From a virus: DNA of 64,000 bases. The translations under genes were made by a program, and so were the position numbers. Position 1 is the stretch's first letter. Each line of letters starts with the position of its first letter. Below are positions 12,450 to 39,383 of this stretch, in pieces. Where the stretch lies: the IMG/VR virus record IMGVR_UViG_3300031760_000017, one strand, 5' to 3'. Under the pieces are notes generated by a model. The model was not told the origin of the DNA, searched no databases, and worked only from the letters and a program-made list of their open reading frames with translations.

Positions 12450-12611
12450 TCATTTTTTGACGTAAGGTTTATTACCCATATAATTATTATATGGGGTGTT
12501 GCTCAATAACATGTTATTGCTCCCATAAGGAAATTGTACTTGCGGTTGCCCCATCATTCCGCTCATAAGCTGAGGCTGTTGCAAATAGTTAGAATTATTG
12601 TAATTTGCCAT
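12450..12611 (-). CDS. Small Q/N-rich protein, 53 aa
   Basis: ATG with GGAGGAAAG SD. Ends in TGA. Confidence 0.4.
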   Translation of the reverse strand: MANYNNSNYLQQPQLMSGMMGQPQVQFPYGSNNMLLSNTPYNNYMGNKPYVKK

Positions 12612-12810: not shown

Positions 12811-13299
12811 ATGAAAATATTATCATTAGATTTATCAACAAAATCTTCTGGTTGGTGTGTAGGAGAAGATGGAGTTATAAAATCTCACGGATGCATTACC
12901 GCATCATCAAAAGATGTGATTCAAAGAATTATAAAGATGCGGAGTTAGTTATCTGCAATTATATAGAAAAATAAAATAGATAAAATTGTTATGGAATAGG
13001 TACGACCTGACTTTAATTCACATACGAGTAAGGTATTAATGTGGCTTCAAGCAGCAATTGCAATTGCCGCACACTAGATTAATCCGAAGATTTAGTTTTA
13101 GTTCATCGGACCTAGTGAATGGCGTGCCGCATTAAAATTTAAGCAAGGTCGCGGAGTAAAAAGAGATAATTTAAAATCACAAGATATACAATATGTTAAA
13201 GATAAATATAGCACAGATGTAAATGATGACTAGGCAGACGCAATATGTCTTTTTGACGCTTATTCAGAAAAATTTGATAATGAAATAAATTGGGAATAA
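12811..13299 (+). CDS. RuvC-like Holliday junction resolvase, 162 aa, TAG-recoded
   Basis: The N-terminus MKILSLDLSTKSSGWCVGEDG is typical of phage RuvC-like resolvases. Five or more in-frame TAGs. Ends in TAA. Confidence 0.6.
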
Positions 13300-13603
13300 A
13301 AAAGACTAATCTTATTCAAGATTAGTCTTTTTTATTTTATTATTCTTCTTCTTTTTTATCCTATTCTTTTAAATCATCTAAAGGAATCTTATTAACCTTT
13401 CTAGATTTCATAGATTGAACAGTATAATCATTCTAAATCTTCTGTTTTTTTACTATTTTCCAAATCTATTGAAATAAAAAGAATTTAATTAAAAAAGGAA
13501 GCTATGATTTATTAAACTCCTAAATAATTTTCTATTGAAAATTATAACACATTAAATTATAATCATTTTCATTCATTTTTAATACCTCTTATCTATAATT
13601 ATA

Positions 13604-16600
13604 TCAATCTATATAACCAACCCATCCTCTATACGGACTACCATATGAATGTCCATCATACCATCTTCCAAGAGCATAACCCCATTCAAAATAAAGAATC
13701 CGAGGAGAACTTGAATCATTTGGATCTGCATGCTCGATCCATATATCTGTAACAATCTGTCCCCAAGAAACTTTTTGATTATCATAAGTAAAATAATCAG
13801 CTTCTAATTCTTCAGTTGAAAGATAATCTGATCTAATTTGTGAAGCAGTCAAATAATCTGATCTAATTTGTGAAGCAGTTAGATAATTTGCATTAAGAGT
13901 TTGAGTAGAAACATAATTTGCTTTAACTTGATTAAATTCTGCTTTATCAGCATATAATGTATCACATTTTATAATCATCTTATCAGTCAAACTTCCAGAA
14001 TAATAACTGTTGGTCATATCACTAGCCATAACAGTATTAGGATCTAACCAAGAGTCACCTGAGCCTCCTATAGTAAAACCATATCCATTTAAGGACTGTC
14101 CACTCATAACCTATCCATAAATTTTCCCAAAATAAGCATCTCCATTTGCGCTAATAGACCAAGAAGGACCAGATATACTACCCTCATAATCAAGAGAAAG
14201 ATTACCAGCTTTTAAATCATAAGTATTAATATTCCATCCGCCTATCTGTCCGGAGCTTGCATTTATCTCGCCTGATAAATTTACATTAGATGCTGTTAGA
14301 TTACCATTATTATCAACAGAAAATCTAGAACCAAGAGCAATTTCATCAGTTCCAATATAAACGCTTCTATTATTTCCTTTTGTTCCAAAAGAAATTGAAC
14401 TTAAATTAGCTGTAAAATCTCCTTTAATAGTCCAATGATTTCCAGATAAATACCCCATTTCTAAAGTCGCAGGTTTTATTGTTCCATTATCTGAATATCT
14501 ATTAGTAAATCTAAAAGAATTTCCTAAAGATAAGCCAAGAGGAGATAAATGAAAACCATCAGCTGTATTAGTTAATTCTGTTTTATTTCCACTATAAATA
14601 CGACTACGATCAGCTTCTAAAGTAATTTTTTGACTATTTAAAGAATTACTTTCAGTACCAATTAATTTAGTACCATTTATAGTCCAACCGCCAATTTGAC
14701 CAGATGTTGCGGTAATTTTCCCACTTAAATCTGTATTAGTAGCAACTAAATTTCCATTAGAATCTACTTTAAAACGTCCTGAACCATATCTTATTTCAGG
14801 TTTTGTTAAATCAATTAATAAACCTTGACCTTTTTCATTACTAGATGTATAATTAGATGGTAAGCCATTTTCATTATAATTTTTCCAAAAATTACCACTA
14901 TATAATAAAGCATGACTAGTACTTGGATCTATTACAATTTGCCCATTGTTAGCTTTTCCAAATAACGCAGAACCATTTTCACTATTTAAAAAGAAAGTTC
15001 TATCACCTTTATTATATCCTAATAATCCAATGTCAGGAGCAGTCTTATCTGGATTTTTAACTTCACCCATTAAAACTCCAGTAAAACTATTATCATTTTC
15101 TTTTTTACCTGCGCCCATTTGCGGAGCTAAGATATAACCACCCTTATCATCTAATTGAATACTGTTGCCATCCCAAGCGTTAATATGAGCTAATCCATAT
15201 TTATTTAATAAGAAATGAATAGGAATATGAATTCTAGCAATAACCTAATTATTATTAACACTTTTAACAGTACATACTAAAGCATTATTAACACACTAGC
15301 CGCTATACCTTGAAGCTGGTCGACATATGCATTGATTCTTTTGTAAATTTTTAGTATAATAACTCTAAGTTAATAACTCTAAATCATGAGAATCGTTATT
15401 ATAAGGAAACTAATCATACTAACCTACTTCAATCTAATGTGTCTGTATTATATTTATAACATCACCATTAACTGAATAACTAAAATTAACTGCATGACTT
15501 CCAGAAACTAATGATATATCTTCCCATTTATTATTTATTTTTTCTTTAATAATAAATTCAAAAGGTTTAGAATTGTCATATTGAGGAGATAAACCATCAG
15601 AACTATACATGACATATCTAAATCCAGTATAATCTTTTAATTCAATTCTATAATTATCATTTTTAACCCATGCAGTTGCAATAGGCAATGTACTATAATA
15701 TGAGTGCTGATTATAAGTTATTGTGCATTTTAGAATATCTGCTAATGTTTGCGTAAAAGTAGTGTCTATTGGATGTGCTGTTGTATTCACATATGAAATA
15801 AGTCCAGTATTAGCATTTACAATATTAAAAGAACTTTCATCAGTAAAATTTGTTTTATAAAAATTCTTTAACATGTTCCAAGTTACAGAACTAGGACTAG
15901 TTACACCATCTTTTGGATTTGCGGCAGTTGAAGTTCCTTCCCAAATCAAATCTCCACTTTGCCATAGCTGAGCTTTAAATAAGGTTTTTCCAACATTAAA
16001 TCCTGCAGTTTGCTACTATCCAGTTCCGCTTGCCGCAAAATTAATAATATAAGAATTAGAATCTCCTATTGCTGTTAAAGTAGGGTAAATAGGTAATATT
16101 TTTGCTGTACTATTTGGAACAATTTTCACAATATATTGGGTCCCATTTGTACCAGGTTCTCCCTATTTTACAAAAGTAAAGTTAGTTTTTGCAACTAAAT
16201 TAATCTACTTATAAGTTACAAATAATTCAATCTGATTATTTAATTTTTTTACATCATATTTTTGTGCAATATCATAAACTAAAGTATCTAAATTTGAATA
16301 ATATCTATAACCTTCCTATTCAACTGCCCATGTTTTATTGTTTTTGTCAACTAATAAAGTATTTTCAATAGGAATTTTCCAAGTAACTTGTCTTTTCTTT
16401 ATATCATCAGTAATATCATTCCCTAAATTATCATATACCTTAAAAGTTAAAGCTAAAATCTATTGCGGATCATCTAAACTTTTACTATTAGGCGCAATAC
16501 CATTCTAATTATATTTATATGATGCAGAGCCATTTTCAATAATTAGTGAATATATATTTTCCGCCTATAAAGAATTACTTAAAGTAATTGAAGCTGTTCC

Positions 16601-18295
16601 TATATAATTATGATTTAAATCTTCTACCGTACATTTAAATATAGCAAATCCATCTATTGCATTAACTTGTAAATCATAAATTTTATTTTTACTTACTCTT
16701 TGTGTATATTTAAAATTAGAAAGAGTAGTTTCATAATTATTTAGTTCTTGTTGTGCTTCATTTTTAAATCTAGTTCCAGCTTGAATACTATTTTTTAATG
16801 ACTGCAAAGCATTATAAGTAGTTGTATAGTTATTATTTAATTCAGTCGTTGTTTCTAAAGCTTCTAATCCACAGTTATTATTTTGCCAAGCCCAATAGTA
16901 ATTATAATTTTGTATATTTTCAACTCCATTTACTTTACAAGTTAATGTTGGATGTCCAATATCATAATAAAATTGAGTGCCACTATCTGACTATATTATA
17001 ATATCTGCCGCATTAGCTTGTAAATTTTGAATTGTGATTTCCTTAGAAATAACTGTATTATCATATAAAACCGCAACTTTTAATTTATTTTCTCTTGCAG
17101 TTGCATCTTCTCGATAAACTATATAAGTACTATCTCCAGGCACCCATTCTATTTGAGGAGCTTGAGTTGCAGTTCCAGGTGAAATAATATTTTTTTCATT
17201 TACACATTTCCAACCGCGTCCTAAATGTTGATTATAATACTAACTATTTGCAAAAATACCAACATTTTCTTTTCCCCAATAGAAAGATAAATTTTGAGAA
17301 TCTGATACTAATTTTCCTTTTATTCTTACCTGTGCGGTAACTATTAATTCTTCTTTTGGAGAAGGATTTGTAGCTTGTTTAAAGAAAATACCTTTTGGAG
17401 TATAAAATGAAATAGATATTCCATTATTTTCTTCATCGCTTTTTCTTATAGCACCTAAAATTTCAACAGAAGAAATAAAGATATTTACTCCATTATCTGT
17501 TGATCTTAAAGGATAATGCTAAGGTGTCCCGGATGCTGAATTAGGAAAATCCTAGCAAAAGATTTCAATAGAATCAATTCTAACAAAGTTTTCTCCATCT
17601 ATTTCAAAAATCTAATATTGTCTAGTATTATGTTCAAATCTATAAGGATTACCTGTCATATTATCTTCATCAAGCGTATAGCTTTTAATTATCTATTTAG
17701 AATTTCCATTAGATTCTAAATTAGAATTATCATTAAATACTAAATTAAAAGTTATACCATAATGACCTTGATATTGTTCCTATAATGGAATAGTATTTCT
17801 TATAGTCATTCCTGCAATTAAAGAAGATGCTTTTTTAATATATTGATTTAAAGCATCATTATCTAATTTTAGCGGTGATGAGCTAACTCCATATTTATAA
17901 ATAACATAACTATATTTCTTATATTTTGTAGCTAAATAATAAATGCCGCTTGTTGTAACGCAATTCTTACCTAATATATCATATGCCTACTATCCAACCG
18001 CTTCAGAAACATAGTTAATTCCAAGTTTCTAAGTTGTACCAAGAATAGTTTTATCTTTGCTCATATCATTTCCTGGAACTAAAATATAAACATATGCACC
18101 TTTAGAATAAGTAATATCTGCCGAACCCGCATACGCAAAAAAAGTTGTATCTTGATAACGACATTTATATTTTCCTATTGTCGCATCTTCACAAGAAATA
18201 ATTTGAGCTTGAATAGTTTTATCATATCCAGCTTTTTTTATTGAATTATTAGTTAATAATTCAATCGCGTCTAAAATTTTCTAATTAACGCCCAT
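13604..18295 (-). CDS. Giant tail-fibre or tail-associated protein, about 1,560 aa, TAG-recoded with about 40 in-frame TAGs
   Basis: The minus-strand ORFs 13604.., 14111.., 15434.. and 16565.. all share one frame and are separated only by TAG. The ATG at 18293-18295 has a GGAGATAAAAG SD. No TAA or TGA was found in the frame. Confidence 0.6.
13821..13940 (-). repeat. Tandem 30-nt coding repeat, about 4 copies, encoding an xYLTASQIRSD repeat
   Basis: Direct repeats of ataatctgatctaatttgtgaagcag. Confidence 0.7.
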
Positions 18296-18383: not shown

Positions 18384-18548
18384 TCATATTTTTCTTGTTT
18401 TTAGAACTCCATCATAATTATATCTAGTTATCTAAAAAAAATCTTGTTTTGAAATTTTTTCTTCTTTAACTAAATTTATCATATCTATGAGTTCATAAGC
18501 TCCACAATTCCATTTTTCTTGAATTTTAATTAAATTAAATTCTTTCAT
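18384..18548 (-). CDS. Small hypothetical protein, 54 aa, one TAG
   Basis: ATG with AAAGGAGA SD. Ends in TGA. Confidence 0.4.
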
Positions 18549-18575
18549 TTATTTCTCCTTTTAAACAATAAAATA

Positions 18576-18604
18576 AGGAAATAGTATTAAAATACTATTT
18601 CCTT
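18576..18604. terminator. Hairpin terminator downstream of the tape-measure gene
   Basis: AAGGAAATAGTATT-AAAA-TACTATTTCCTT. Confidence 0.6.
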
Positions 18605-18611
18605 ATTATTT

Positions 18612-21600
18612 TTATTTTCTTCTCATAGCACGTTGAGCCGCTAAATTAACTAAATCATTTAAAGCTTCTTCAATCTATTGTTTACTATTTACAGCAGGGA
18701 AAGATGCTGAAATCTGAACTTTTTGATCAATAACATCACTAAGAGTTGAAGCTGAATTTAAAGAAAATCTATCAGTAGAGATTTTCCCAATTTTATTTAA
18801 TAAAGATGTTCCTATATTTTTTGTAATAGATCTTAAAATAGAAACACTATTTAAAATATTTCTAGTATCTTCTGAATTTAAAACTAATTCTTTTTCATCC
18901 AATATTGCTAAACGACCTTGTTTTGAATTCCAACTTCCTGTATATCCACCTGTATCATATCTTTTTATTTTTCTATTATAAAGTCCAACAGGATCATTTA
19001 TATTCATATGAAGAACGTCATGATTATCTAAATGTCTAAGATCTCCAACTCTATTGCTATTATAATCATAGACTCCATTATCAGCTCCTCTTCCCCATCT
19101 ATAATGATTTTCTGAGCCATTAGGATAATATGTTTCAGATTCAGGCTCTTCATAAGAAACAGTATCTTGCATTCTGTTTAAAGCATCTTGATAGCGGTCA
19201 GCAGCAGACTACATTCTACTAGCATTAGCTTCTGCATTACTTGCTAAAGCATCTAAAGCCGCTTGAGCTTCATTACTATAATCCCAATCAGCATCCGCCA
19301 TTCGAATCCTCATATCTTCATAAGTCTGCGCAGTTGCCTAAGCTGATGCGGCAGCCTATTGCTAAGCTTGAACGAAATCATATAATTGAGTAACTGCATT
19401 TGCCGCAGCTGTATAAACAGAATCATAATCATAAACAAGAGCTTGAGCAGCATCTCTTAAATCTTGAATAGCAGATAATTCATCAGCCATTCTATTGATT
19501 AAATCATCATTAACTTCAATTAATCCAGTAAATTCATCTATTAAATTATCTACTCCATTTTGAACATCATTTAAATCTATACCAGCAGTATTAGCTAAAC
19601 TATCAAGTTCTTGCTAATAATTAAAAGTAGCCTCATGAATCTCTTCAAAAGCTTCTTGACAAGATGGTATAAAACCGCCCTATCCCGCAACTTTATCAGA
19701 CATCTATTGAATACCGCTATTCCATGCTGGAACTAAATCGCCCATTAGAATACCTTTTTCATCATCTGTCATCTTTTGATAATTTGCAACATCTATGTTA
19801 TAAATTGCGGCAATCTCATTAAAAGCAGATTCAGTTAGATTTTTTCTAATATCAGAATTTTGTTGAGCTTTATTATTAATATATTCTCCATATTGCTCTT
19901 TTAATAAAGCTAGCTATCTAACTCTTTCTTCTTCTGTTAAAGAAGTATCAGTAACTATATCTTTATATTTCTATTGGAAATCTCTCCAAGCAGAAAGCAT
20001 TTCCTATAAATTATTTTGATAACGCTATTTATCAAAATTATATAATTCATTTTGAGCACTAATTAATCCTTGTTCAGCATCAAAAATACCATTTTGATCA
20101 GCAACATATTGATAAGAATAGTTACCTTGTGAATCACGTTTTAATCTTAAAGAAGTTTTACTTGCTCTTATATCTTCTAAAGCAATTCGTGCTTGTTCAA
20201 TTTGAAGCATCTTCTACGCTCTATCTACATCATATTGAGTAATCTTCTATTTATTCTTTAAATTATCTAATTGCTCATCCATAACTTTCTTTAAAGCTTG
20301 TTGATGTTTCAATTGATTTGGATTATTTAATGATTTTTGGAACTTATTTTGTAAATCCTGAAGAGCAAAAGCAGCATTAATTGTATCTAAGTATTCATCC
20401 GCATTTTTATTCATTAAATCCCATTCATCACTTAAATAATCAGTACCTTTTCCGTCTGTAATTTTCTTATCTAGCTAATCAAAAATTTTATCAATAGCAT
20501 TACTGTATTTTTCACTGATTGTTTTTGCGGAAGTTTCTATTAAAGAATTGATTTCCTTAATAGCGTTTTTATAATTTTCTTCAAATTGTTTTGCCGCATT
20601 AGTATCTCCCGCTAATAAAGCTTGCTACCATTCTTGTTTCCAAAAAGCAATCTATTTTCTTAAAGCATCTATTTGATTATTTTGATTTTTTTCTAATTCA
20701 GCATAATAATTTTCCATAGCTTCATAATTTTCATCACCATAAAGCAATTTTAATAAATCCATATCATGCTAAATTAAATCATTAATAAAATCATAATCAT
20801 CTTGTTGTTTCTCAAATTGTTTAGAAATATCATCAATAGTATCTAAATAAGCTTTATCAATATCCGCAATTAAATCTTCAATATCCTACATTTGTTTCAT
20901 TAATTCGGATAAATCACTTTTTAAATCCGCCATAGCTTGTGCTTTATTATTACCATAAATTGCGGAAGTTCCTTTTTTATCTATATCTTCTATTTCTTTA
21001 CGAGTATTTAATAATTGCTATGTTAATTTTTGAACAGTACCTATTGAACCATTTATATTAAAGAAAGAATCTAAATCCATAACATTTTTAGTAGCATCTT
21101 TAAAAATCTTATCGAAATCAGTATCTTTCATAAAATCAGTTTTATTAATTACATTTCTTACAAACTAATTCCAATCTTTTGCAGCTTCGCCCATCTATAA
21201 TCGAATTTCAAGCTACATTCTAAATTTTTTAATATTAATTTCAATCTACTTTTGGGCAATCTATTCAATCTAATCTACTATATCTTCCATGCTATTTCTT
21301 AAAGAATCATAATCTTTAATTTTAGCTTGAGTATTTTTTAAATCTTCTTGAGCAGATTGCACAGCTTTATCATAAGCTGAAATTTGTTTATCTAATCCTT
21401 CTTTATAAGTTTTATCAGTAGAAGCATTATAAGATTCAATTAAACTATTCTATTCATTTATTAATCTATTAACCGCATCTTGTTTAGCTTGTAATATAGA
21501 CATATAATCATTTATATTTCCATATTCATCAAAAGTAACTCCTAATGAATTTAGAATTTGCTGTTGATTAGCTAAATCTTGTCTTTGAAGCTATTGCTTT

Positions 21601-24600
21601 TCTTTTAATTTTCTTTTTTGAGCTTCTAATATTGCGGTTTGTTTATTTAAATTATCAAGTAATTGTTTACCATATAATTTATCTTGAATTTTTTGAGTTC
21701 GCTCTAAATCACGATTAATTTTCTTTATTTCAATGTCAATATCGTGATATAAATCTTTCTCTTGCTCTATTGGCTTTTTAGTATTTTTAGTAGAAGTATT
21801 AGTATTATCTTTTGCAGTTTTATCTGCTGCTTTTTGAGCTTTTTCAGCCTCAGCTTTTCTCCTTGCTTGACCCTTTGCTCCAGCGCCATTAGCAGATTTT
21901 TTATATTTAAAACCACCACCAGAAGTTTTATGTGCGGAAACAACTTTTAAAGCAAATGCAGTATGCTATTTAGTTTCCGTATCATCCGCAGGAACTGTTT
22001 TATAACGAATAGTAGGCACTCTATATGTTACCTAACTTCCATCTATGGGGTTTACACCAGTAACTTCTCTATTTGTAACTTCAGCTTCTGCGCCAGTGTA
22101 CTGAACTGTATCTTGCGCAGTTGTTTTTTGCTAGATGATTTCAGCATCTACACCCATAGAAGCTAAATAATCTGTTGCTTGTTTTGCTGTCATATTGGCA
22201 GCATTTACCATATTACTTAATTCTTTTAAGAATCCTTCATTATCCAATGAAGCTCCGATTTTTAAATCCTATAAATTTTTACCCTAATAATATAATTCCA
22301 TTATATCATCAAAGTCTTTCTTAAAAGCTTCTGTATCTAAATGAATTTGGGTAGCAATATCTTGTCCAGCTAATTGCATTAATTGATCATAAGCTTCTAC
22401 ATTACCATCAATTGCCGCCTTCATTAATTTTAAATTCTCAACATTTGTTAAGAAATTATTAGATAATGACTAACCATCTAAATCAAGTAAATCAGCATAA
22501 GCATCTCTTAATCCAGAAATTGCCTATGATTGTTCTTGCCAAGAGCCACTTTGTAAAGCTCCTAGCCAAGTATCATAATTATCAACAACATCTTGAATAG
22601 CATTATCAAATCTTAAAATTGATTCAGCAAGTTCTTCCGCACCTTCACGATCCTATTTTAAAACTTTTGATAATTCTTCACTTTGCTATGATAAACTTTG
22701 AATATCTTTAGTAAGATTTGCATAAGCTGTCTCATCAACATCCGAATCTGTTGGAAACATAGCATCATGTAACTGATGAGCAAGTTTTTCTTCTTCCTAT
22801 TTTAACTAAGCAGTCCTATCACTTAAATCTTTAGTTTGATCACCTACTTTAGCAACAGCATCATAAATCTACTTTACTATACCTGGAAACTCCTAAAGCC
22901 ATTCTTTTGATTTTTGTTGCTTTTCAATAATAGCTGTCCATTCATTTATAATAGGCTAAGTGGCTCCATCTGTATCTTTTAAATATTCAATTTGTTTCTT
23001 TAATAAATCAAAATCAGCATGATTATTTTGAAGAGCTCTATTATCTAATTCATCATAATCATACTGTTTCTAAGATAATAATTGAACTCTATTTAATTCA
23101 GATTCAATCTAGAATAAAGTATTTTTAAATCCTTCTAATTTTAAATTATTAATAAGTGTATAGAACTATTCTGCATCTTCAGTCATTTTATATGACCCAT
23201 TAGCCATCATAGTAAAGAAAGATTGAATCTAAGGAGCTAAATCTCCAAATTCAGTTTTTGAAACGCTCTTTCCACTTCTAACTTGATCTTCAAGAGACTG
23301 ATAAAAAGCATAATTCTCTGCAGCGTCTCCCTGCATAGCAGAAATTTCTTTTATATTAGAAAAATCTGCATGTGAGATATTATCAACAACATTACCTAAA
23401 GTATCCCAGTTAGAAAATATTGATGGAGAAAGTTCAAAAGCTTTAAATAATTCCTCTAAATGTTGTTCATCTAATTCAGATAAATTTTTAATTATTTTAT
23501 CCGGAATTATTCCTGATGCTTTTTCTTGAATTTTATCAATAATTTTACCAATTTCATTATATTGATTATAAAGTTGAGACTATTCAGTAAGAAGATATGA
23601 ATCAGCTAATTCTTTTGCAGTTGTATCTCCTACAAATTCACCCTGCTATTCTAAAGCTGCTTGTAATTTTTGTCTTTGTTGTAAAAATTCTCCAGCATTT
23701 GTTACATTAGAAAAATCAAGGACGCCATGAGCTTCTTTTGATAATCCTATAAAAGCTGCTTGATTTTCATTAACATCTTTCGAAGCGTTGTCAAAAGCTT
23801 CCATCTATTCTGCTGAATCTGCAACCCATTGTGTTAAATCTTTATACCATTGAGATTGTCTCTATTGTTCGCTTAAAGTTTTGCTTAAATCTTCAACAGC
23901 TTTTTTAACTCTAGGATACATTATTAACAAGGACTATAAATTATAATCAACTTTATATTCAATAGTTCCATTATCTTGTTGGCGAAAACCATTTTCACTT
24001 AATATCTCTTTAGCTTCATCGCTCATTCTATTGCTACCAAAAGATAAAGCATAATCAATTTGATTGTCTTCACCAAGTGAACCTTTTACACCACGTTTTC
24101 CTTGAAGTTCAAAAGAGCTCCATAGGTTTTGTTTTGCTGCTTCATACTATTCTTTACTGGAATTATATTTTTTCTAAGCTTCTTCAGCTTTTAATTCTTT
24201 TAAAGTTTGAATTAAATTATCATAATTATTACGTAATCTATCTGCCGCATCGCCTTCAAGACCATATTGATTAATTAAATCTTCTATTCCTGATTTTAAA
24301 TCAGATCTTGTAATCTAGCCTTCTTTATATTTTTGATTTAGCTCTTCAATAGATTTATATAATTCTTGATTTCTACTTAATTGTTCTTGAAGTGTATTTG
24401 CTTCCTAAATAACTGATTCATTATGTTCAATTTGTGCTTTTCTAGCCTATTTACTTTTATTTATTAAAAAACCGAGTGCTGTTACAGCAGCTAATGCAGC
24501 TGTAATAAAAGCTCCTAATGGAGTAATTGTAATAACACTATTAAGAAATTGAATTTGAAAACCTGCTTCTGTTGCAGCAGCACCTATAGCACCAAATGAA

Positions 24601-27263
24601 ACGGCCTTAGCTCCATTAGAAGTAATAACAGCTGCCGCTTCTGCTGTACTCTTTCTAAATTGATAATTTAAAAGATTAGTTGCTTTTCCAACAGCCCCAA
24701 TTCCTTTAATTAACATTGGTAATGAAAAAGATAAATTTGTAACAATTTGAAGTATTCTTTGTCCAGTAGATAAATCCTGATTTTTCCAAACACTTCCTAA
24801 ATGTTGAATTTGTTGAATAGAAGACCCAATTCGAGCAAGACCTGCAGCAGCTTTTGCATATTCCTCAATTCTAACAGCTCTGTCTTTATTTGACATCTCC
24901 CCATTAAAATCGTTTTGTTTTGCATTCATTTGACCGCGCAATTTCTACAATTCAGGAACAATTTTTGGATCATTATAAACCTATTTAAAAATTTTTTCTA
25001 TTTTTGTTTTAATTTCATTACCACTAGTTTCTGTTATTTCTGCTAATTTATCAAAAAAATCTTTAAATTTTTGAAAAGTTTCTTCATTTACACTTTTAGA
25101 AAATCTTTTAGGTAAATCTTCATATAATTGACCAATCTCTTCAATAGCTTTTTGAGTTTCTTTAGAAAACTATTGATTACTAGTCATTTCATCAAAAACT
25201 TCTTTAAGATCTTTTGCTCCTAATCGTAAAGTAGTAAAAAAACTTCTTATGCCATCTTGCCCTACTTTATCAAATATATTTAAAAACTTTTCAGTTGATT
25301 GAGAAACAGACTCAGTTGATTCTTGAAATTCATCATATTCTTGCTAACATTTTTCTAGCATATTTAATATTTCATCAATTTTTTCAGGCTTTCCAACAAT
25401 ATTTTCTAATTTTGTCGTACCTAACTCTTGTCCTGAAATTCTATCTATTAACTATTCTAAAGGTTGTTTTTGTTTAACTAAAGTTTGAATCTAATTTCCA
25501 ATATTAGTAATATCATTTAATAATTTTTGTGCTCCTTGAAATTCTTCTGGAGACATCATTCTTGATAGTTCTAATAAATGTTCTCTATCTTTTAATAAGC
25601 TTTTACTTACTTCATCTAATTCAGGAATTCCTTGCCAATCTTTTGTTGCTTGTAAGGCATTATCAAATTCTCTAGCATTACTATTTGCAATCTCAAGGTT
25701 AGTAATAGTTGTATTTATTCCTTTAGCAATTTGTTCACTAAAAACAGCAACCCCAATAGCTCCAAGAGATTGTAATAATGCCTTACCTCCGCCTAAGCCA
25801 TCAATAAAGTTTGCAACAAAAACTGCAACACCCGATAATGCATCAGTTATACTCTTTATAGAATCAACATCAATTAAACTATCATATACATCTTCAACGG
25901 AAGCTTTTAATTGCTTTAAATGCGCGGCAGTTGAATCCATATATATATCTTGTTGCTTTTGTAAGGTACCTGCTGCATTTTGCGCTGTATTTAATGCTTC
26001 ATTATATTCTTCAAAATTATCAAATAAAGCAAGTAAATTATTATATTGTCTTTGACCAGCCATTGTTTGAGCTAAATAAATTTGCTGTTCACGAGTTAAA
26101 TCATCCCAACGACCGCCAATTTCTTCCATAACTTCGCCCATATCACGAAGATTTCCATTCATGTCAAGAACATTAAAACCAAGTTGTGCCATTTGACTAG
26201 AATATCTACCAAGAGTAACTCCATCTTCATCAATTCCAGCTTTAATATCACTAATACGAGCATAAACAGTTCTTAAAGCTGTACCAACACTCTAAGGAGC
26301 TTGTCTTGTTGCAGAAATAATAGTTGATAACTGTGCAGCTAATTGCTATTCACTAACACCCATTGTGGCGGCCGTACTTGCAACTTTACCCATACCTTTA
26401 CTTAATTCTTCAAGATCTGATGCGGTTGTTGCAGCAACAGCAGCTAATCTATCAATATATATCTAAGCCTAATCCGCATTAACCTTATAACCATTCCAAA
26501 CGGCAGTTAACTGTTCAGAAACGTCTGCTGTTGATTGATTTGTAACATTTGCTGTTTTTAATGTAATTGCGGTTCTAGCCTAAATTTCTTTATCTGATAA
26601 ACCCTGTTGAGCATAAATTAAAGCAGCATTAGTGTAATCTACTGTTGTAGTGCCTAGTTGTTTGGCTGCATTATTGGCTTGCTCTGCAAATCTTCCCATT
26701 TCATCAGCAGTCTTACTAGTAACGATTCTAATATCATTTAATGAAGTATCTAATGATTTAACATATCCAACTGCTTGTTGAATAGTACTAGTGAAACCAC
26801 GAAATACAGTATTAGCTAAATTATATTTTGCAACATTAACAAAAGTCTAAGCAAATTTATCAAGCACTTGATGAGTTTGCTTTAATTCTGCATTAACACT
26901 TAATACATGAGACGATAAATTTCTAAAAGCATTCTCACCAACAGCACCGCTCTTAGAAAAACTTTGATAGACTTTTTCTATTGAAGTTCCAGATTCATTT
27001 AATGACTTATTAAAACTTTCAACATTTGTAGTATTTAATTTTGCATTAAAAGCAGCTCTTAATGCTTTCTATACATTTCCAGCCTATTTCTGAATTGCTA
27101 TTAAATCGGTTTTAGCTGTATCAAAATCAGAATTATTTATTTTCATCATATCTTTTATAGTTAAATTTTGAATCTCTTTTAAAGATTTTTTTAACTAATT
27201 TAAACTCTGTTTTTGAATGTCAAAACCAATAGAATAGATAATATCTCCACCCTTTTTTGCCAT
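18612..27263 (-). CDS. Tape-measure protein, TP901-like core. Giant at about 2,883 aa, TAG-recoded with about 90 in-frame TAGs
   Basis: Track ORFs 18675.., 20025.., 24447.. and 25491.. are all in one frame. The ATG at 27261-27263 has a GGAGATAAAAGG SD. The TAA stop is at 18612-18614. The core motif is LGFNVLDMNGNLRDMGEVMEEIGGRWDDLTREQQIYLAQTMAGQRQ. Confidence 0.7.
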
Positions 27264-27463
27264 CCTTTTATCTCCTTTTTATATATTTAAAATCATGTGA
27301 TAAAAAATCTTCTTCTATATATAATATAAAAAAATGACATTTTTGATTATCATAACTCGACCATATACTTTTTTCTTGATGAATTATAAAAATTTTGATA
27401 TAATTTTAATATGAAATGTAAGAAAGAATATTTAAAGTTTATAAATAATATAAGGAGGAAGAT

Positions 27464-28276: not shown

Positions 28277-29851
28277 ATGATTTAGAAAATTGTAACTACT
28301 GTAATTCCAATTTTAGTACCTATTGTAATAATCGCTCTCTTATGCCTTGCAATTACCTTAATTGGTAAAGCTATGTATAAGAAATCTCCGCCAAATATGG
28401 CAATGGTTGTAACTGGACCTTTTGGAAATAAAACAATTATTGGTAAAGGTTGTTTTGTAATTCCTATTCTTGAAAGAGTAGACTTCCTTTCTCTTGAAAA
28501 TATGCAATCAGACTTTACATCTAAAGATGACATTCCTACAAAAGATGCCATCAATATTTTAGTAGATGCAGTTGCTAACTTTGCAATTTCAACTGATCCG
28601 AAGACTCTTCCAAAGGCTGCTGCAAAATTCTTAGGTAAGAAACCAAAGCAAATTGAGGAAATTGTAAGACCGGTTCTTGAAGGTAATATCCGAGAAATTA
28701 TTTCTCAAACAACTTTAAAAGAACTTATTCAAGGTGATAAAAAGAAACTTGCAGAAAGAATTATTGAAAATGTTACTCCCAATCTTCAAGATATGGGTCT
28801 TGAATTAACAACTTTTAATATTCAGAATTTCAAAGATAAAAATGGAGTAATTGATAACTTAGGTCTTCAAAACACAGTCCAAATTAGTAAAGATGCTGCT
28901 ATTTCTAAAGCAAAAGCTGAACAGGAAATTGCAGTTGCGGAAGCTAATGCGCGAAAAGCTGCTAATGAAGCTCAAATTGCTGCGGAAACTGAAATTGCAG
29001 AAAGAGAAAATAAGCTTACAATTAAAAGATCTGAATTAAAAAAGCAGGAAGATATTAAGAAAGCAGAAGCTGATGCTGCTTATGAAATTCAGCAACAGGA
29101 ACAGCAAAAAATAATCGAAATTGCAACTGCCGATGCAAAACTTGCAAGACAAGAAAAAGAAATTGATTTGCAAGAACGTGAAGTTAGTATTAGAGAGCGT
29201 AAACTTGAAGCTGAAGTTAAGAAAACGGCAGAAGCTAGAAAATACGCTGCTCAACAGGAATCTGATGCAAATCTTTATGCAACTCAAAAGAGTTCTGAAG
29301 CTGATTTATTTGAAAGACAAAAGAAAGCTGAAGCTGAACAGTATGAAGCAGAACGACGTGCGGAGGCTCAAAAAGCTAAAGCTGAGGCTGAAAAATTTGC
29401 AAAAATTCAGGAAGCAGAAGCTATTAAAGAAACTGGTACTGCGGAAGCTGAAGCTATTAAAGCTAAAGGTACCGCAGAAGCTGAGGCTATTAGAGCTAAG
29501 GCGACCGCTGAAGCTGAAGGTTTGTTAAAGAAAGCTGAAGCTATGGAAAGATATGGTGAAGCAGCTCGTGAACAGCAAAAACTTGACGCGTTAAAGATTT
29601 ACTTTGAACAGCTACCCGCAATTGCTGAAGCTATCGGTTCAGGCTATGCAAATGTTGAAAAGATGGTTATGTTCGGAGATGATTCTTCAAAATTAAGTGG
29701 TAATATCATTAATAATATTACTCAAGTTTCTGAGGGTCTTAATGAATCACTTGGTATTGATTTAAAATCTTTAATGTCTGCTTTTATCGGTGGAAAGATT
29801 GTTGATGCAAATCATACTGAAGTAACTGAAGTAACTAAAGAAGAAGAATAA
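28277..29851 (+). CDS. Flotillin (FloT/YuaG-like SPFH protein). Codon 3 is a TAG
   Basis: The strong SD AAAAAGGAG precedes the ATG at 28277. The reading is MI*K, then a TM helix, then the SPFH domain, then EA-rich flotillin repeats. It is in frame with track ORF 28373..29851, whose own Met has no SD. Confidence 0.7.
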
Positions 29852-32741: not shown

Positions 32742-33263
32742 ATGAAAGCTGTAAAAGACCTTGCAGAAATGAAGCGACAGAAAGCTGATATTGAAAATCA
32801 GGCTGAGCTTTATAGAATTCAGCGTCAGAAAGAGGAAGCTGAAGCTGAAATGCAGTATAAAGAAGCTATTCAGGTTAAAAAGCGTGAAGCTGAAGCTGCA
32901 GCAGCCCAGGCTAAGAAAGACCTTCAGGAAGTTCTTAATGCAATCCAGACCGCTGAAGTTGCAAGAGAAAAAGAGAAGCATGCGGCAGAAGTTGCTCATG
33001 CAAAGGAACTTGCGGAAATTGAGAAAGCTAAGCAGGAAGCTTATGCTGCAACCGTAAAAGAAATTATGAGTTCTATCTCTCCTGACCTTGTTGCCGCAAT
33101 CAGCGCTAGCTCGAAAGCAGACCTTCTTAAAGAAGGTATGAAGAATATGTCTCCTTATGCAATCGCTAATGGAGAATCTGTTGCAGATACTGTTAACAAG
33201 CTTATGAGAGGAACTTCTCTTGAAGATGTCCTTGATAAAGCTTCTCCAAAAATTAATTTCTAA
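32742..33263 (+). CDS. MVP cap-helix-like coiled-coil domain. Probably the C-terminal part of an 829-aa read-through fusion with 30774..32741
   Basis: EA-rich coiled coil followed by ...SPDLVAAISASSKADLLKEGMKNMSPYAIANGESVADTVNKLMRG. Compare human MVP ...[46 protein letters not shown]. Confidence 0.45.
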   Translation: MKAVKDLAEMKRQKADIENQAELYRIQRQKEEAEAEMQYKEAIQVKKREAEAAAAQAKKDLQEVLNAIQTAEVAREKEKHAAEVAHAKELAEIEKAKQEAYAATVKEIMSSISPDLVAAISASSKADLLKEGMKNMSPYAIANGESVADTVNKLMRGTSLEDVLDKASPKINF

Positions 33264-35017: not shown

Positions 35018-35074
35018 ATTTTAAAGGTGAGATAAAAAATCTCACCTTGTTTTTTTTATTATTTTTTGTTATAA
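35018..35074 (+). terminator. Composite terminator and promoter cassette
   Basis: Hairpin AAGGTGAGAT...ATCTCACCTT. TTGTTT is exactly 17 bp from TGTTATAAT. Confidence 0.6.
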
Positions 35075-35110
35075 TATATATAATGAAAAATAAAGAAAGG
35101 ATATAAAAAT

Positions 35111-35365
35111 ATGACGCTTAAAGAATGGCTTAAAAAAATTGATTTAGTAATAGACGTAAAAATTTGGGGAAAAGATGATGAGATACCTCTCTTTGAAGGC
35201 GCAGCTTTTGATATTCCTTGGACTATTATTGATTTTTCAATAGGCAGAATGGAGAATAGCACAGAAGAACCTATTTATATTTGCACTTATAAAAATAAAA
35301 ATAATGTGGTACTTTCAATAATTGTTATTAATGTGATAGAAAAAGAGGAGGATTTTCCATTTTGA
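35111..35365 (+). CDS. Hypothetical protein, 84 aa
   Basis: ORF with AAAGGATATAAAAAT ahead of the ATG. Confidence 0.4.
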   Translation: MTLKEWLKKIDLVIDVKIWGKDDEIPLFEGAAFDIPWTIIDFSIGRMENSTEEPIYICTYKNKNNVVLSIIVINVIEKEEDFPF

Positions 35366-37097: not shown

Positions 37098-39383
37098 ATG
37101 ACATAGAAAGAATTTATTTAGAAAGTAAAAAATCCATGTATAAATGCAACAAATATAATCGGCGGTTATCTTCCCAGCGTATTAATTGGACAAATGTGTT
37201 TATAGACTGGTTACGGAACTGGATATAATTGCGAATTATTAATGCAATGGAATAATTTGCTTGGAATGAAAACTTAGTTATTAAATGACACTTGGAAATC
37301 TAAATATTGGAATGGCAAATCCGCAACTAAAAGAACTCCAGAGTATTATGGTTACCATACAACTATTACAGATTCATTCAGGGTTTATGATAATATTTAG
37401 CAATGTGCATGTGACTATTTACAATTTATGCGCGATGCTAAATATTCTAAAAACGGAAACTATAAATATAGAGATGTTTTAACAATAAAAGATCCAACTC
37501 AACTGATTACTCAAGTATCTAAACGAGGATATGCAACAGATCCAGCTTATATTACATCTGTCATGAGTATTATTAAAAAATATAACTTAACTCAATATGA
37601 TTCAAATGGAGGGAATAAACCTATGACATTAAAATAGGCATTATCAAAACTTGGTGTTAATTTAATTAATAGAATTAGTCAGAATAGAAGCCAAGTTCCT
37701 GCTCATAATGCAAATTCACACCAATATTTTGCTGTTCACTACCTTGGTGTAAATGGTTAGAATCCAGACCTATATGGCGGCGGATATGGTGGACATTTTT
37801 ACGTAAGTAAAGATGGTAAATGCTATCAAGCCGCGGAAGTAACTGATAAACTTTGGCATGTAGGTGCTTCTTCAGGATTCTCTTATATTCATTCTTATGC
37901 AAGAAATAATAATACAATAGGAGTTGAATGCGGAACTTACACAGCTTCTGGAAGAAATAATGATAATGAGACATGGTATTTTACAGAAGCCACTCAAGTA
38001 ACTGCCGCAAAATTAGCAGCAGCTGTACTTACTGTTTATAATTTACCTATGGATCATTTATTAAGACATGGGGATATTACAACTAAAAATTGTCCATCTC
38101 CATTAAAAAGAGACCAGGGTAAAGGTAGCAACTGGACTTGGGATAAATTTAAATCAGAAGTTTCTAAATATATGGCTCAATTAGGAAATGAATCCGCTCC
38201 AACTGTTACTATTCTAAAATTAGGAAGTAATGGAAAATAGGTTAAAGAATTACAAGAAAAATTATTACTTTTAGGATTTGTAGATTGTGCTTATTACAAT
38301 AAAAATAGAAATTTCGCAGATGGTGATTTTGGATAGAATACTTTAAAATCATTAAAATATTTCCAACAAGCAAAAGGATTATAGGTTGATGGTATTTATG
38401 GACCAAAAACCGCAGAAGCATTAGATAAAGCCGTTAAAGAAGCAAAAGCTTCAAAATTTGATGTTACAGTAGATGAATTTTTAAATAATGCAAAAATTAT
38501 TGCAAAAGAAAATAAAGAAAAAGGCTTTAAATATGGTAATGCTTGTTGCTTACCTTCAGTTTATCCTTTTGAAAAAATAACATCTTGTGATAGATTTGTC
38601 GATCAAGTTTTATATAAGAGTGGATTAAAAACTGTTGGTAATCGCGGTTTTACTGATTTATAGGATTGTTTAATTAATCTTAAAGCTCAAAAAATTTATC
38701 GAGAATCTTAGTTACAAAAAGGTGATATTGTATATACAATTGGACATGTATTCATTCTTGGAAACAAAATTTCTAATACTACTTATTAGAGATACGATGC
38801 AGGTTCTGTTGAAAGAATCCAATTAACTGGACCTTATGCTAGCTATAAATCTCAGCCTTTTGTTGAAGAAATTGACCTTTTCACTTTTGCTTATAGATTA
38901 CCTTTTAAAACAAAAGAAGAAAAGAAAGAAAAGACTTCAACATTTTTAAAACTTGGTGATAATAGTGCATCAGTTAAACAAATGCAAGAAAAATTAATTA
39001 AACTTGGATATTTTGTAGGCACAGCTGGTGCGGATGGCGATTTTGGTCAAAACACATTAAAAGCATTAAAATATTTTCAATCTAATCATGGATTAACCGC
39101 AGATGGATATTATGGTCCACTTGCTAAACAAAAATTAGAAAGTATCTATAATAAAATTAAAAATTATGATACACCTACTAAACATGATAATTTAATTAAA
39201 GAGAAAATTTTTACAACAACAGACAATTTAAATTTACGTAAAGGTTCTTCAATAGCACATGAAATTATACTTTAGATTCCAAAAGGAGCAAAAGTAAAGT
39301 GGTATGGTTATTATACCGGATCTTGGTATTATGTAGTTTATAATGGAAATATTGGATATGCATCTTCTCATTATTTAAAATAA
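37098..39383 (+). CDS. Multidomain endolysin, about 761 aa, TAG-recoded with about 17 in-frame TAGs. It has a glucosaminidase-like N-terminus and an amidase_2/PGRP domain. Two PG_binding_1 repeats and a CHAP/NlpC-like region follow. A C-terminal SH3 domain completes it
   Basis: A single frame joins track ORFs 37428.., 38049.. and 38982... Motifs HGDITTKNCP (amidase_2) and ADGDFG.NTLK.LKYFQ (PG_binding_1, two copies). SH3-like C-terminus. Ends in TAA. Confidence 0.7.

What the first reader, a model, noticed from the sequence alone, without database searches (positions are those of the whole stretch)
18612..27263. Extraordinarily long tape-measure gene and a 1,560-aa fibre gene hidden as fragments
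With TAG read as sense, four same-frame track ORFs and all intervening sequence form one 8.65-kb gene. That is about 2,883 aa with a TP901-type core, and about 90 TAGs but no TAA or TGA. This implies a very long tail or a jumbo-phage-like virion. The downstream gene at 13604..18295 merges four annotated fragments in the same way. The chance of 2,800 codons without TAA or TGA in 28% GC DNA is negligible, so these are real genes.
Basis: partly seen in the sequence, partly recalled or inferred. Interest (0 to 1): 0.5.

Follow-up and report, generated by a model that had tools for sequence, protein, structure and literature searches.

The report
Giant phage tape measure, TAG=glutamate
The 8.65-kb stretch is one real 2,883-residue tail tape-measure gene of an uncultured gut phage (relatives' contigs are about 135 kb); that length is normal for its group, but its 71 in-frame TAG codons appear to mean glutamate, not the glutamine assumed for all TAG-recoded phages.

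Summary
On the minus strand, 27263..18612 is one frame of 2,883 codons with 71 TAG (not about 90), no internal TAA or TGA, and a TAA stop. Chance probability is about 1e-90. It has a Shine-Dalgarno site and a TP901 tape-measure core (TIGR01760 E=1e-35, PF10145 E=1e-28). It is collinear end to end with single-ORF 2,673-aa tape measures of cultured standard-code Enterococcus phages.

Gene 13604..18295 (minus) is also real: 1,563 aa, 26 TAG. It is the conserved large tail protein that follows the tape measure. "Fibre" is unproven.

The length is ordinary for this lineage. More than 100 homologues are 2,600-3,500 aa on contigs up to about 140 kb, and the published phAss-1 group has 3,149-3,209 aa. 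The phage is not jumbo.

The unexpected result is that TAG behaves as Glu, not Gln:
- A TAG sits on the catalytic Glu of the GH73 endolysin domain and is conserved as TAG in relatives.
- Homologue columns favour E over Q by 42 nats.
- TAG exchanges with GAA/GAG between relatives.
- The phage's tRNA(CUA) has a Bacillota tRNA-Glu body.
- The same test on phAss-1 returns Gln.

If confirmed by proteomics, this would be a new phage genetic code.

The parts
18612..27263 (-). Tail tape-measure protein gene: 2,883 codons, 71 in-frame TAG, TAA stop. TP901-type core at aa 155-466. One strongly hydrophobic segment at aa 906-937. About 324 kDa.
   Evidence: frame and stops; PF10145, PHROG 4211/34405, TIGR01760; 100% identical P0001 and >100 full-length homologues; collinear with the 2,673-aa single ORF of Enterococcus phage VRE9_4; chance, hydrophobic segment, mass.
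27272..27277 (-). Shine-Dalgarno AAGGAG, 8 nt upstream of the ATG at 27263. The gene opens a leftward transcription unit, divergent from the + strand genes that start at 27464.
   Evidence: sequence read directly; gene map.
18572..18607 (-). 16-bp AT-rich hairpin immediately after the tape-measure stop codon (terminator-like or attenuating; function not tested).
18384..18548 (-). Conserved 54-aa ORF with 1 TAG, between the tape measure and the large tail gene. Present at the same place in relatives (54-60 aa).
   Evidence: called genes in relatives; translation.
13604..18295 (-). Large distal-tail / host-recognition protein: 1,563 aa, 26 TAG, TGA stop. No Pfam or NCBIfam family. The N-terminus and aa 1030-1134 are conserved with the gene that follows the tape measure in phAss-1.
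   Evidence: frame; orthologues of 1,307-1,577 aa in L001, L004, L008, L009, all TAG-containing; no family; weak phrog_9413 'tail protein and host specificity'; phAss-1 match; weak Ig-like match only.
13340..13576 (-). 78-aa ORF with 6 TAG, last gene of this leftward block. Conserved in relatives (69-84 aa).
37098..39383 (+). Endolysin (GH73 glucosaminidase + Amidase_2 + 2x PG_binding_1 + SH3) with 14 TAG. Codon 36 (37203-37205, TAG) lies on the catalytic general-acid Glu of GH73. This is the key evidence for the meaning of TAG.
   Evidence: domains; alignment to FlgJ 2zyc AQAALETGWG and 7qfu AQAIVESGWG; 3k3t has Ala at that position, AQAALATGWG; E in 111 of 120 homologues; log-odds E +18.1, Q -24.3; TAG conserved at this codon in L137 and L138.
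58423..60204 (+). RecJ-like DHH exonuclease with 8 TAG. Used as an independent test of the TAG meaning.
   Evidence: Two homologues whose genes contain no TAG have E at 4/8 and 5/8 of the TAG positions, and Q at 1/8 and 0/8.
396..1395 (+). Last four tRNA genes (Gln-UUG, Gly, Arg, Cys) of a 24-gene phage tRNA array. The array's tRNA(CUA) suppressor lies about 4.9 kb before window position 1, on the same contig (L011 3536-3609).

Best explanation
The window comes from an uncultured siphovirus-type phage of the SPbeta / phAss-1 / Enterococcus-EF1 supergroup. The host is probably an uncultured low-GC Bacilli bacterium, and relatives' contigs are about 131-139 kb.

Gene 27263..18612 (minus) is its single tail tape-measure protein of 2,883 aa. 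By the usual rule of about 0.15 nm per residue (my own knowledge) this would set a flexible tail of roughly 430 nm. It is followed by a 54-aa ORF and a 1,563-aa distal-tail / host-recognition protein.

These and other mostly late genes (endolysin, tail proteins, RuvC, a tyrosine recombinase, homing endonucleases) contain in-frame TAG. They can be made only once the phage's own tRNA(CUA), encoded in its 24-gene tRNA array, is expressed. Most replication genes have none, although the RecJ-like exonuclease gene has 8. All genes stop with TAA or TGA.

Shown:
- Gene continuity, family membership, conservation and the phage-encoded suppressor.
- TAG positions correspond to glutamate in homologues.

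Inferred:
- The suppressor is a tRNA-Glu derivative charged with Glu by the host glutamyl-tRNA synthetase.
- It is not converted to Gln, because it lacks the tRNA-Gln features (U1-A72, short D loop) that the GatCAB amidotransferase uses.
- UAG therefore means Glu in this clade, whereas it means Gln in the related phAss-1.
- Restriction of TAG to mostly late genes works as a timing or host-exclusion device, as proposed for other recoded phages.
For: One tape-measure gene:
- 71 TAG, 0 internal TAA/TGA, P about 1e-90.
- SD plus ATG.
- TIGR01760 1.2e-35, PF10145 1.2e-28, PHROG tape-measure families.
- An identical 2,883-aa protein and >100 homologues of 2,600-3,500 aa.
- The five relatives examined at DNA level have 69-75 TAG and no TAA/TGA.
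- Collinear over aa 37-2876 with a standard-code 2,673-aa ORF annotated as tape measure in cultured Enterococcus phages.

TAG = Glu:
- (a) Endolysin codon 36 is TAG at the GH73 catalytic Glu. Homologues have E in 111 of 120 and Q in 8. The 8 sequences above 60% identity, excluded, are probably those 8. In the two checked at DNA level the codon is TAG.
- (b) Over the 14 TAG columns, 112 homologues below 60% identity give summed log-odds E +18.1, K -9.7, D -10.6, Q -24.3. The query's true Q and true E columns recover Q and E.
- (c) Tape-measure codon alignments: TAG aligns with GAA/GAG 19-21 times and with CAA/CAG 6 times. E is favoured over the runner-up by 15-31 nats and over Q by 17-38 nats in six within-clade comparisons. 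The alignment was built with Q at TAG, which biases against E. The closest relative (L001, 95% DNA identity) differs at TAG sites only by TAG<->GAA.
- (d) RecJ: TAG-free homologues have E at 4/8 and 5/8 sites.
- (e) Reciprocal control against phAss-1: window TAG gives E (8.9 nats over Q), and phAss-1 TAG gives Q (11.2 nats over E), matching the published assignment (PMC10607447).
- (f) tRNA(CUA): a pattern built from its acceptor stem, T loop and A73 hit 120 sampled cellular tRNAs, of which 111 are tRNA-Glu, nearly all in Bacillota. Its nearest neighbours among 774 tRNAs from the same, mostly Bacillota, genome loci are tRNA-Glu with an almost identical D arm. phAss-1's suppressors are different; one is Gln-like (UGGGG..., G73).
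- (g) The same suppressor, and variants with compensatory stem changes, occur in five IMG/VR viral contigs.
Against: - TAG also exchanges with CAG/CAA between close relatives: gene-2 positions 951, 985, 1350, 1395 and several endolysin columns.
- Two tape-measure columns that are about 85% Q in homologues carry TAG here (positions 2006 and 2204). Mixed Glu/Gln decoding, or simple Q-to-E replacement, cannot be told apart.
- Q counts in database proteins are contaminated by TAG translated as Q.
- Bacterial GluRS normally reads the anticodon (my own knowledge), so charging of a CUA anticodon with Glu is unproven.
- No peptide evidence exists.
- The suppressor gene lies outside the 64-kb window.
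- No tail tube or chaperone genes flank the tape measure, and no virion has been seen, so tail length is an extrapolation.
Confidence: 0.78

Rival explanations
1. Standard 'code 15': TAG is read as glutamine, as assumed by the first reader, by the databases that translated this gene, and by all published work on TAG-recoded phages. The Glu-like signal would reflect frequent E/Q exchange at tolerant sites.
For: - Precedent: crAss-like phages validated by proteomics (PMC9523058), and phAss-1 (PMC10607447).
- Single-transition TAG<->CAG exchanges among 95%-identical relatives.
- Two conserved-Q columns of the tape measure carry TAG.
- One PG_binding_1 repeat has TAG where its paralogous repeat has Q (sequence, read directly).
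Against: - It would require a Gln at the catalytic Glu of GH73, kept as TAG across relatives 68-73% identical.
- The homologue columns reject Q by 42 nats, while true Q columns of the same protein recover Q.
- TAG<->GAA (two nucleotide changes) is the only difference at TAG sites from the closest relative, L001.
- The suppressor has a tRNA-Glu body, not a tRNA-Gln body.
- The same method gives Q for phAss-1.
Confidence: 0.1
2. Ambiguous decoding: UAG is read as a mixture of Glu and Gln. This could happen if part of the Glu-tRNA(CUA) is amidated by GatCAB, or if a second suppressor exists elsewhere in the genome. TAG would then sit where either residue is tolerated, or where Glu is needed.
For: Both TAG<->GAA/GAG and TAG<->CAA/CAG exchanges are seen, at about 3:1. 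Only about 84 kb of a genome that is probably about 135 kb (by relatives' contigs) was inspected for tRNAs.
Against: - The suppressor has C1-G72 and a long Glu-type D loop. In my own knowledge of GatCAB recognition these are anti-determinants for amidation.
- The strongly conserved TAG columns are Glu columns.
- Only one tRNA(CUA) was found in the 24-gene array.
Confidence: 0.1
3. The region is not one gene. It would be a decayed or fragmented locus, or several discrete proteins, with TAG as a true stop.
For: Standard-code annotation (JGI/IMG) calls fragments of 46-160 aa.
Against: - P about 1e-90 for the TAA/TGA-free frame.
- 69-75 TAG but no TAA/TGA in five diverged relatives.
- Collinear with a single ORF in cultured standard-code phages.
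- 90% coding density when only TAA and TGA are read as stops.
Confidence: 0.01

Closest known systems
phAss-1 group ('Phassvirus', OQ749652; Babkin et al. 2023, PMC10607447; NCBI 'Caudoviricetes code 15 clade')
   Same: - Uncultured gut phage of about 136 kb with in-frame TAG in 41 ORFs, including the tape measure (3,149 aa), and with phage-encoded tRNA(CUA).
- Shared orthologues at 22-44% identity: tape measure, the gene after it, tail proteins, gyrase subunits, RecJ, YorF-like, AAA_24 and helicase.
- The tape measure opens a rightward block next to oppositely oriented lysis genes.
   Different: - No nucleotide-level similarity.
- Its suppressors are Gln-like and long-arm types, not Glu-like.
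- Its TAG aligns with Gln, whereas the window's aligns with Glu.
- Part of the tail block (3833-7672) is inverted relative to phAss-1.
Enterococcus phages EF1/EF5, VRE9_1-4, H1 (134-142 kb, cultured, standard code)
   Same: A single 2,673-aa tape measure (PHROG 34405) collinear with aa 37-2876 of the window protein. Genome size is similar.
   Different: Only 27% identity and no TAG recoding. Their tape measure sits inside a conventional head-tail block, with different downstream tail genes (no gene-2 match).
Bacillus phage SPbeta / phi3T group
   Same: About 127-134 kb siphoviruses. There is a tape-measure core match (aa 81-644, 24% identity), and the window's replication module has SPbeta-type YorF and YorH domains.
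   Different: Distant relationship, standard code. Some records annotate the SPbeta/phi3T feature under the match as a lytic transglycosylase; no such domain was found in the window protein.
Code-15 crAss-like and other TAG-recoded phages (Borges et al. preprint 10.1101/2021.08.26.457843; Peters et al. PMC9523058)
   Same: TAG is concentrated in structural and lysis genes, the suppressor tRNA is phage-encoded, and the host presumably uses the standard code.
   Different: - Those phages read TAG as Gln (shown by proteomics for two crAss-like phages).
- They infect different hosts and belong to different lineages.
- Here a tyrosine recombinase carries 10 TAG, whereas Garnet and Topaz integrases avoid them.
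Peritrich ciliate nuclear code (NCBI table 30; my own knowledge)
   Same: UAG encodes glutamate.
   Different: It is eukaryotic, UAA is reassigned as well, and it is genome-wide rather than confined to a set of mostly late genes. It is unrelated in origin.

Membership tests
Phage tail tape-measure protein, TP901 family (TIGR01760 / PF10145) | Core domain scores above the curated cut-offs | tested here: met
   TIGR01760: 123.2 bits against a cut-off of 28.8. PF10145: 100.8 bits against 33.2. Top PHROGs are all tape measure.
Phage tail tape-measure protein, TP901 family (TIGR01760 / PF10145) | One long, mostly helical polypeptide, collinear with bona fide tape measures over its whole length | tested here: met
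   aa 37-2876 align with the 2,673-aa tape measure of cultured Enterococcus phages. More than 100 full-length homologues exist. Helical content was not predicted.
Phage tail tape-measure protein, TP901 family (TIGR01760 / PF10145) | Sits in a tail module: chaperones and tube upstream, distal-tail proteins downstream | tested here: inconclusive
   Downstream is a conserved 54-aa ORF and a 1,563-aa tail-like protein. Upstream is a divergent promoter region and non-structural genes, as in phAss-1. Tube and chaperone genes were not seen in the window.
Phage tail tape-measure protein, TP901 family (TIGR01760 / PF10145) | Protein length sets tail length | not testable with these tools
   No virion images. 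2,883 aa x 0.15 nm = about 430 nm is an extrapolation.
Genetic code 15 phage (TAG = Gln) | In-frame TAG in real genes, with TAA/TGA as the only stops | tested here: met
   204 in-frame TAG in 24 of 54 genes. Stops are 46 TAA and 8 TGA.
Genetic code 15 phage (TAG = Gln) | Phage-encoded tRNA with CUA anticodon | tested here: met
   L011 3536-3609, on the same contig 4.9 kb before the window.
Genetic code 15 phage (TAG = Gln) | TAG positions correspond to Gln in homologues | tested here: not met
   They correspond to Glu in the endolysin, tape measure, gene 2, RecJ and the comparison with phAss-1. The control, phAss-1 TAG, gives Gln.
Genetic code 15 phage (TAG = Gln) | Suppressor resembles tRNA-Gln | tested here: not met
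   It has C1-G72, G2-U71, A73 and an 11-nt D loop. 111 of 120 pattern matches in bacterial genomes are tRNA-Glu, and its nearest neighbours are tRNA-Glu.
Jumbo phage (>200 kb) | Genome larger than 200 kb | tested here: not met
   The longest contigs carrying near-identical or related tape measures are 131-141 kb. phAss-1 is 136 kb and the Enterococcus relatives are 134-142 kb.
Tail fibre / receptor-binding protein (for gene 13604..18295) | Recognisable fibre or receptor-binding fold or domain | tested here: inconclusive
   No Pfam or NCBIfam hit. Only a weak phrog_9413 match (E=1.3e-5, 35 aa) and weak Ig-like and gpJ matches in the PDB. The AlphaFold model of aa 1019-1395 has pLDDT 33. The assignment rests on position and on the phAss-1 homologue, probably the ORF(s) its authors call putative tail fibre (PMC10607447).
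phAss-1-like / SPbeta-like phage supergroup | Shared gene content and genome size | tested here: met
   16 window proteins match phAss-1 at 22-44% identity. YorF and YorH domains are present. Related contigs are about 135 kb.

The most novel reading that the evidence does not exclude
A widespread clade of gut phages, with contigs up to about 140 kb and probable Bacilli hosts, uses a previously undescribed genetic code in which UAG encodes glutamate. The code is implemented by a phage-borne tRNA-Glu derivative with a CUA anticodon. Its sister group, phAss-1, reached UAG = Gln with a tRNA-Gln derivative. This would mean two independent amino-acid assignments of the same stop codon within one phage supergroup. 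Current 'code 15' translations of these phages (including the 2,883-aa tape measure, which carries 71 wrong residues) would be systematically wrong.
Probability: 0.72. Interest if true: 0.82.

Novelty: new variant of a known kind. Interest (0 to 1): 0.7.

Why it matters
The tape-measure and tail genes are ordinary members of a known, if little-studied, phage lineage. They add nothing new beyond correct annotation.

The meaning of TAG is the point. In everything I could find, TAG recoding in phages is treated as Gln, and gene callers apply table 15 automatically. If this clade reads UAG as Glu:
- Every TAG-containing protein of these abundant phages is mistranslated in public databases. About 2.5% of tape-measure residues are affected, and so is a catalytic residue of the lysin.
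- Phages have reassigned the same stop codon to different amino acids within one supergroup. This bears on how codon reassignment evolves.
- The suppressor's tRNA-Glu body suggests a route open in hosts that lack GlnRS.
- The pair could be a natural starting point for orthogonal amber suppression with an acidic residue.

The claim is directly testable by metaproteomics on existing samples.

Tried and rejected
- Megablast of 13000-37000 against INPHARED phages found nothing.
- An IMG/VR scan with tape-measure peptides found no relatives.
- PDB sequence search of gene 2 gave only weak Ig-like and gpJ matches.
- The AlphaFold2 single-sequence model of gene 2 aa 1019-1395 had mean pLDDT 33, so no fold search was run.
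- The comparison with Enterococcus phage VRE9_4 (27% identity) was too distant to say what TAG encodes.
- Integrase TAG positions aligned to PDB Xer recombinases fall in variable columns (E, D, N, S, R, K; never Q) and are uninformative.
- RuvC and AAA_24 TAG positions, read by eye, are compatible with E but not decisive.
- The promoter scan found no more sites than shuffles do.
- Literature searches for natural UAG = Glu in phages found nothing. All hits treat TAG as Gln or leave it unassigned. The library is incomplete, so prior description cannot be excluded.
- A search for EM data on the Enterococcus relatives found nothing usable.
- I considered and rejected: the Borges 'gemstone' clades (wrong genome sizes and hosts), a crAss-like podovirus, and a jumbo phage.

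Full report
**1. Observation**

The window is 30.2% GC. On the minus strand, the frame covering 18612..27278 contains 71 TAG, no TGA and one TAA, which is the stop at 18612-18614. The first ATG is at 27263, with AAGGAG 8 nt upstream. The product is 2,883 aa.

From the strand's base composition, 200 TAA/TGA codons are expected in that many codons, so P(none) is about 1e-90. In 100 shuffles of the window, the longest TAA/TGA-free run was 212 codons.

Under the standard code the largest TAG-free pieces are 266, 177, 165, 124 and 116 aa.

Gene 13604..18295 (minus) behaves the same way: 1,563 aa, 26 TAG, TGA stop. With only TAA and TGA as stops, the window holds 54 genes at 90% coding density. There are 204 in-frame TAG in 24 genes, and no gene needs TAG as a stop.

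**2. What the long gene is**

It is a tape-measure protein.
- TIGR01760 (TP901 core) matches aa 155-466 at E=1.2e-35.
- PF10145 matches at E=1.2e-28.
- The best PHROGs are all tape measures, two of them with profiles longer than 2,600 positions.

A 100% identical 2,883-aa protein is already in the public protein collection, next to more than 100 homologues of 2,600-3,500 aa on contigs of up to about 140 kb. JGI/IMG holds 46-160-aa fragments of the same gene.

Five relatives examined at DNA level (50-99% protein identity) each have 69-75 in-frame TAG and no TAA/TGA.

By tblastn the protein is collinear from aa 37 to 2876 with a single standard-code ORF of 2,673 aa, annotated as tape measure in cultured Enterococcus phages of 134-142 kb. 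It also matches the fragmented tape-measure region of phage phAss-1. 'Several discrete proteins' is therefore excluded.

There is one strongly hydrophobic segment (aa 906-937). No lysin domain was found.

**3. Context and what is already known**

The window is part of ENA contig ERZ27256908:k141_3321089 (84 kb). The published relative is phAss-1 (135,976 bp). Babkin et al. reported TAG in 41 ORFs, suppressor tRNAs and a 3,149-aa tape measure, described as typical for siphovirus morphology. They placed Enterococcus phage EF1 in the same putative family (PMC10607447).

The replication module carries SPbeta-type YorF and YorH domains.

So the gene length is the norm for the lineage, and the phage is not a jumbo phage. 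By the 0.15 nm per residue rule (my own knowledge) the tail would be about 430 nm. That is long, but well short of the nearly 1 um tail of Thermus phage P74-26 (PMC10034513 abstract).

**4. The second gene**

Orthologues of 1,307-1,577 aa follow the tape measure and a conserved 54-60-aa ORF in every relative examined. Those checked at DNA level all contain TAG.

Its N-terminus and aa 1030-1134 match the gene that follows the tape measure in phAss-1. That gene is probably the ORF(s) its authors call a putative tail fibre.

No Pfam or NCBIfam family matches. There is only a weak PHROG 'tail protein and host specificity' hit, plus weak Ig-like and gpJ matches. A single-sequence structure model was useless, with pLDDT 33.

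It is a large distal-tail or host-recognition protein. 'Fibre' is plausible but untested.

**5. What TAG encodes**

I aligned the tape measure with its relatives codon by codon. Where the window has TAG and a relative has a sense codon, that codon is mostly GAA/GAG (19 of 59 and 21 of 50) and rarely CAA/CAG (6 each).

I built empirical substitution tables from the same alignments and compared amino acids by likelihood. In six within-clade comparisons E beat the runner-up by 15-31 nats and beat Q by 17-38 nats. The alignment had been built with Q at TAG, which biases against E.

The closest relative, L001 (95% DNA identity over this region), differs at TAG sites only by TAG<->GAA. Gene 2 shows the same E:Q ratio of about 3:1.

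**6. Independent test on an enzyme**

The endolysin (37098-39383) has GH73, Amidase_2, 2x PG_binding_1 and SH3 domains, and 14 TAG. Codon 36 (37203-37205, in LIGQMCL-TAG-TGYG) aligns with the catalytic general-acid Glu of GH73 structures. These include FlgJ 2zyc (AQAALETGWG) and 7qfu (AQAIVESGWG). Entry 3k3t has Ala at this position, AQAALATGWG.
- Among 120 homologues that column is E in 111 and Q in 8. The 8 sequences above 60% identity, set aside, are probably those 8.
- In the two of them checked at DNA level the codon is again TAG.
- Over all 14 TAG columns, the 112 homologues below 60% identity give summed log-odds of E +18.1, K -9.7, D -10.6 and Q -24.3. The protein's genuine Q and E columns recover Q and E.

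In the RecJ-like gene, two homologues whose genes have no TAG carry E at 4/8 and 5/8 of the window's TAG positions, and Q at 1/8 and 0/8.

**7. Control**

I aligned window proteins to phAss-1 by tblastn. The window's TAG codons face E 18, D 13, K 8, Q 4 (n=74; best E, 8.9 nats over Q). phAss-1's 68 in-frame TAG face Q 10, D 7, N 6, E 5 (best Q, 11.2 nats over E).

The method therefore reproduces the published Gln for phAss-1 and gives Glu for this phage.

**8. The suppressor**

The contig carries 24 tRNA genes, four of them inside the window at 396-1395. One tRNA(CUA) lies 4.9 kb before window position 1.

It has C1-G72, G2-U71, A73, a 3-bp D stem and an 11-nt D loop. The phage's own tRNA-Gln is different: U1-A72, G73 and a 9-nt D loop.

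I took a pattern from only its acceptor positions 2-6 and 67-71, its T loop and A73, and scanned one genome per prokaryotic species.
- 111 are tRNA-Glu (99 UUC, 12 CUC), 5 are tRNA-Gln(CUG) and 4 are others. Almost all are in Bacillota.
- Among 774 tRNAs on those loci, the nearest are tRNA-Glu (57 of 74 identical).
- Their D arm (GTG-AAGYGGCTTAA-CAC) is nearly that of the suppressor, and they come mostly from uncultured Bacilli MAGs.

phAss-1's suppressors are of other types; one is Gln-like.

The same suppressor occurs in three IMG/VR contigs of 94-144 kb. Two more contigs have variants with compensatory stem changes, and at least two of the five loci (L142, L143) show much longer ORFs when TAG is read as sense.

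**9. Mechanism (inference)**

Most Bacillota lack GlnRS. They make Gln-tRNA(Gln) with a non-discriminating GluRS followed by GatCAB. GatCAB recognises U1-A72 and rejects the longer tRNA-Glu D loop. In E. coli, by contrast, amber suppressors built on tRNA-Glu are largely mischarged by GlnRS. All of this is my own knowledge and was not checked with tools.

A Glu-bodied tRNA(CUA) in such a host would be charged with Glu and stay Glu. A Gln-bodied one, as in phAss-1, would end up as Gln.

The host hint is weak. One RecJ homologue sits on a 12-kb contig binned as Candidatus Onthovivens (Bacilli). The phage has a Phage_holin_1 holin. Its lysin is a GH73 glucosaminidase/amidase with PG_binding and SH3 domains, and one relative has a CHAP/lysozyme-type lysin instead.

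TAG is confined to tail, lysis, recombination, homing-endonuclease and a few replication genes. This fits the proposal that recoding delays or protects late expression (preprint 10.1101/2021.08.26.457843). Timing was not tested.

**10. Caveats**

- TAG<->CAG/CAA exchanges also occur between close relatives, and two conserved-Q tape-measure columns carry TAG. Mixed Glu/Gln decoding is not excluded.
- Database 'Q' residues include TAG translated as Q.
- The tRNA reference set was chosen by the pattern itself.
- There is no peptide evidence.
- I found no report of natural UAG = Glu in phages in the searchable literature, but that library is incomplete.

**11. Verdict**

The gene lengths and recoding are already known for this phage group.

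The assumption that TAG = Gln (table 15) is probably wrong here. Glutamate is the best-supported reading, at about 0.75-0.8. That is the part worth following up.

Noticed in passing
window 28277-29851 and 30774-33263 (+): Next to the tape measure lie a Band_7/flotillin-like protein (524 aa) and an 829-aa protein with a major-vault-protein shoulder domain (PF11978, weak Vault_3). Both are conserved in relatives. Vault-shoulder/flotillin pairs are unusual phage cargo; their function is unknown.
   Followed up: no
window 33779-36667 (+): An RNA ligase (PF09414), a polynucleotide-kinase-like AAA_33 protein and a Metallophos_2 phosphatase lie just before the holin and endolysin. This looks like a tRNA-repair set. 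One relative (L004) adds a Thg1-like tRNA-His guanylyltransferase. It may be relevant to a phage that depends on its own 24 tRNAs.
   Followed up: no
window 7690-8703 (-): A Xer-like tyrosine recombinase carries 10 in-frame TAG. This is the opposite of the TAG avoidance reported for integrases of recoded Garnet and Topaz prophages. It sits between convergent tail-gene blocks. The block 3833-7672 is inverted relative to phAss-1.
   Followed up: partly
window about 12465-12468: Relative to four related contigs (L001, L002, L004, L009), the window lacks a 2.4-kb segment that contains about five small genes (160, 78, 258, 151 and 193 aa). This is either a natural deletion or an assembly artefact.
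   Followed up: partly
P0009, P0010, P0011, P0032, P0042 (tape-measure homologues): Some homologous tape measures carry Hint/intein and homing-endonuclease domains (PF07591, PF14890, PF05203). These would be inteins inside a tape-measure protein.
   Followed up: no
window 42763-43452, 49147-50091, 50902-51528 (+); L012 17324-18079: Several GIY-YIG homing endonuclease genes are present, each with TAG codons. Just past the window end, one of them splits the DNA polymerase III alpha gene into two ORFs; that gene starts at about window 63358.
   Followed up: no
window 8913-10181 (-): A CotH-family (atypical kinase) protein without TAG lies in the tail-gene block, beside proteins of unknown function.
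   Followed up: no
L011 1-523 (about 8.5 kb before the window): The phage encodes a sigma-70 family factor upstream of the tRNA array. It is a candidate regulator for the switch to TAG-containing late genes.
   Followed up: no
L016 42445-42532 (phAss-1 62445-62532; ARAGORN calls it as 91 nt): One of phAss-1's annotated tRNA-Sup-CTA genes has a long variable arm or insertion, A1-U72 and G73. Its identity is unclear, so phAss-1 itself may have more than one way of reading TAG.
   Followed up: partly
window 12811-13299 (+): A RuvC-like Holliday-junction resolvase with 7 TAG is embedded, on the opposite strand, inside the tail-gene block. It is followed by a 20-bp perfect hairpin at 13293-13338.
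   Followed up: no
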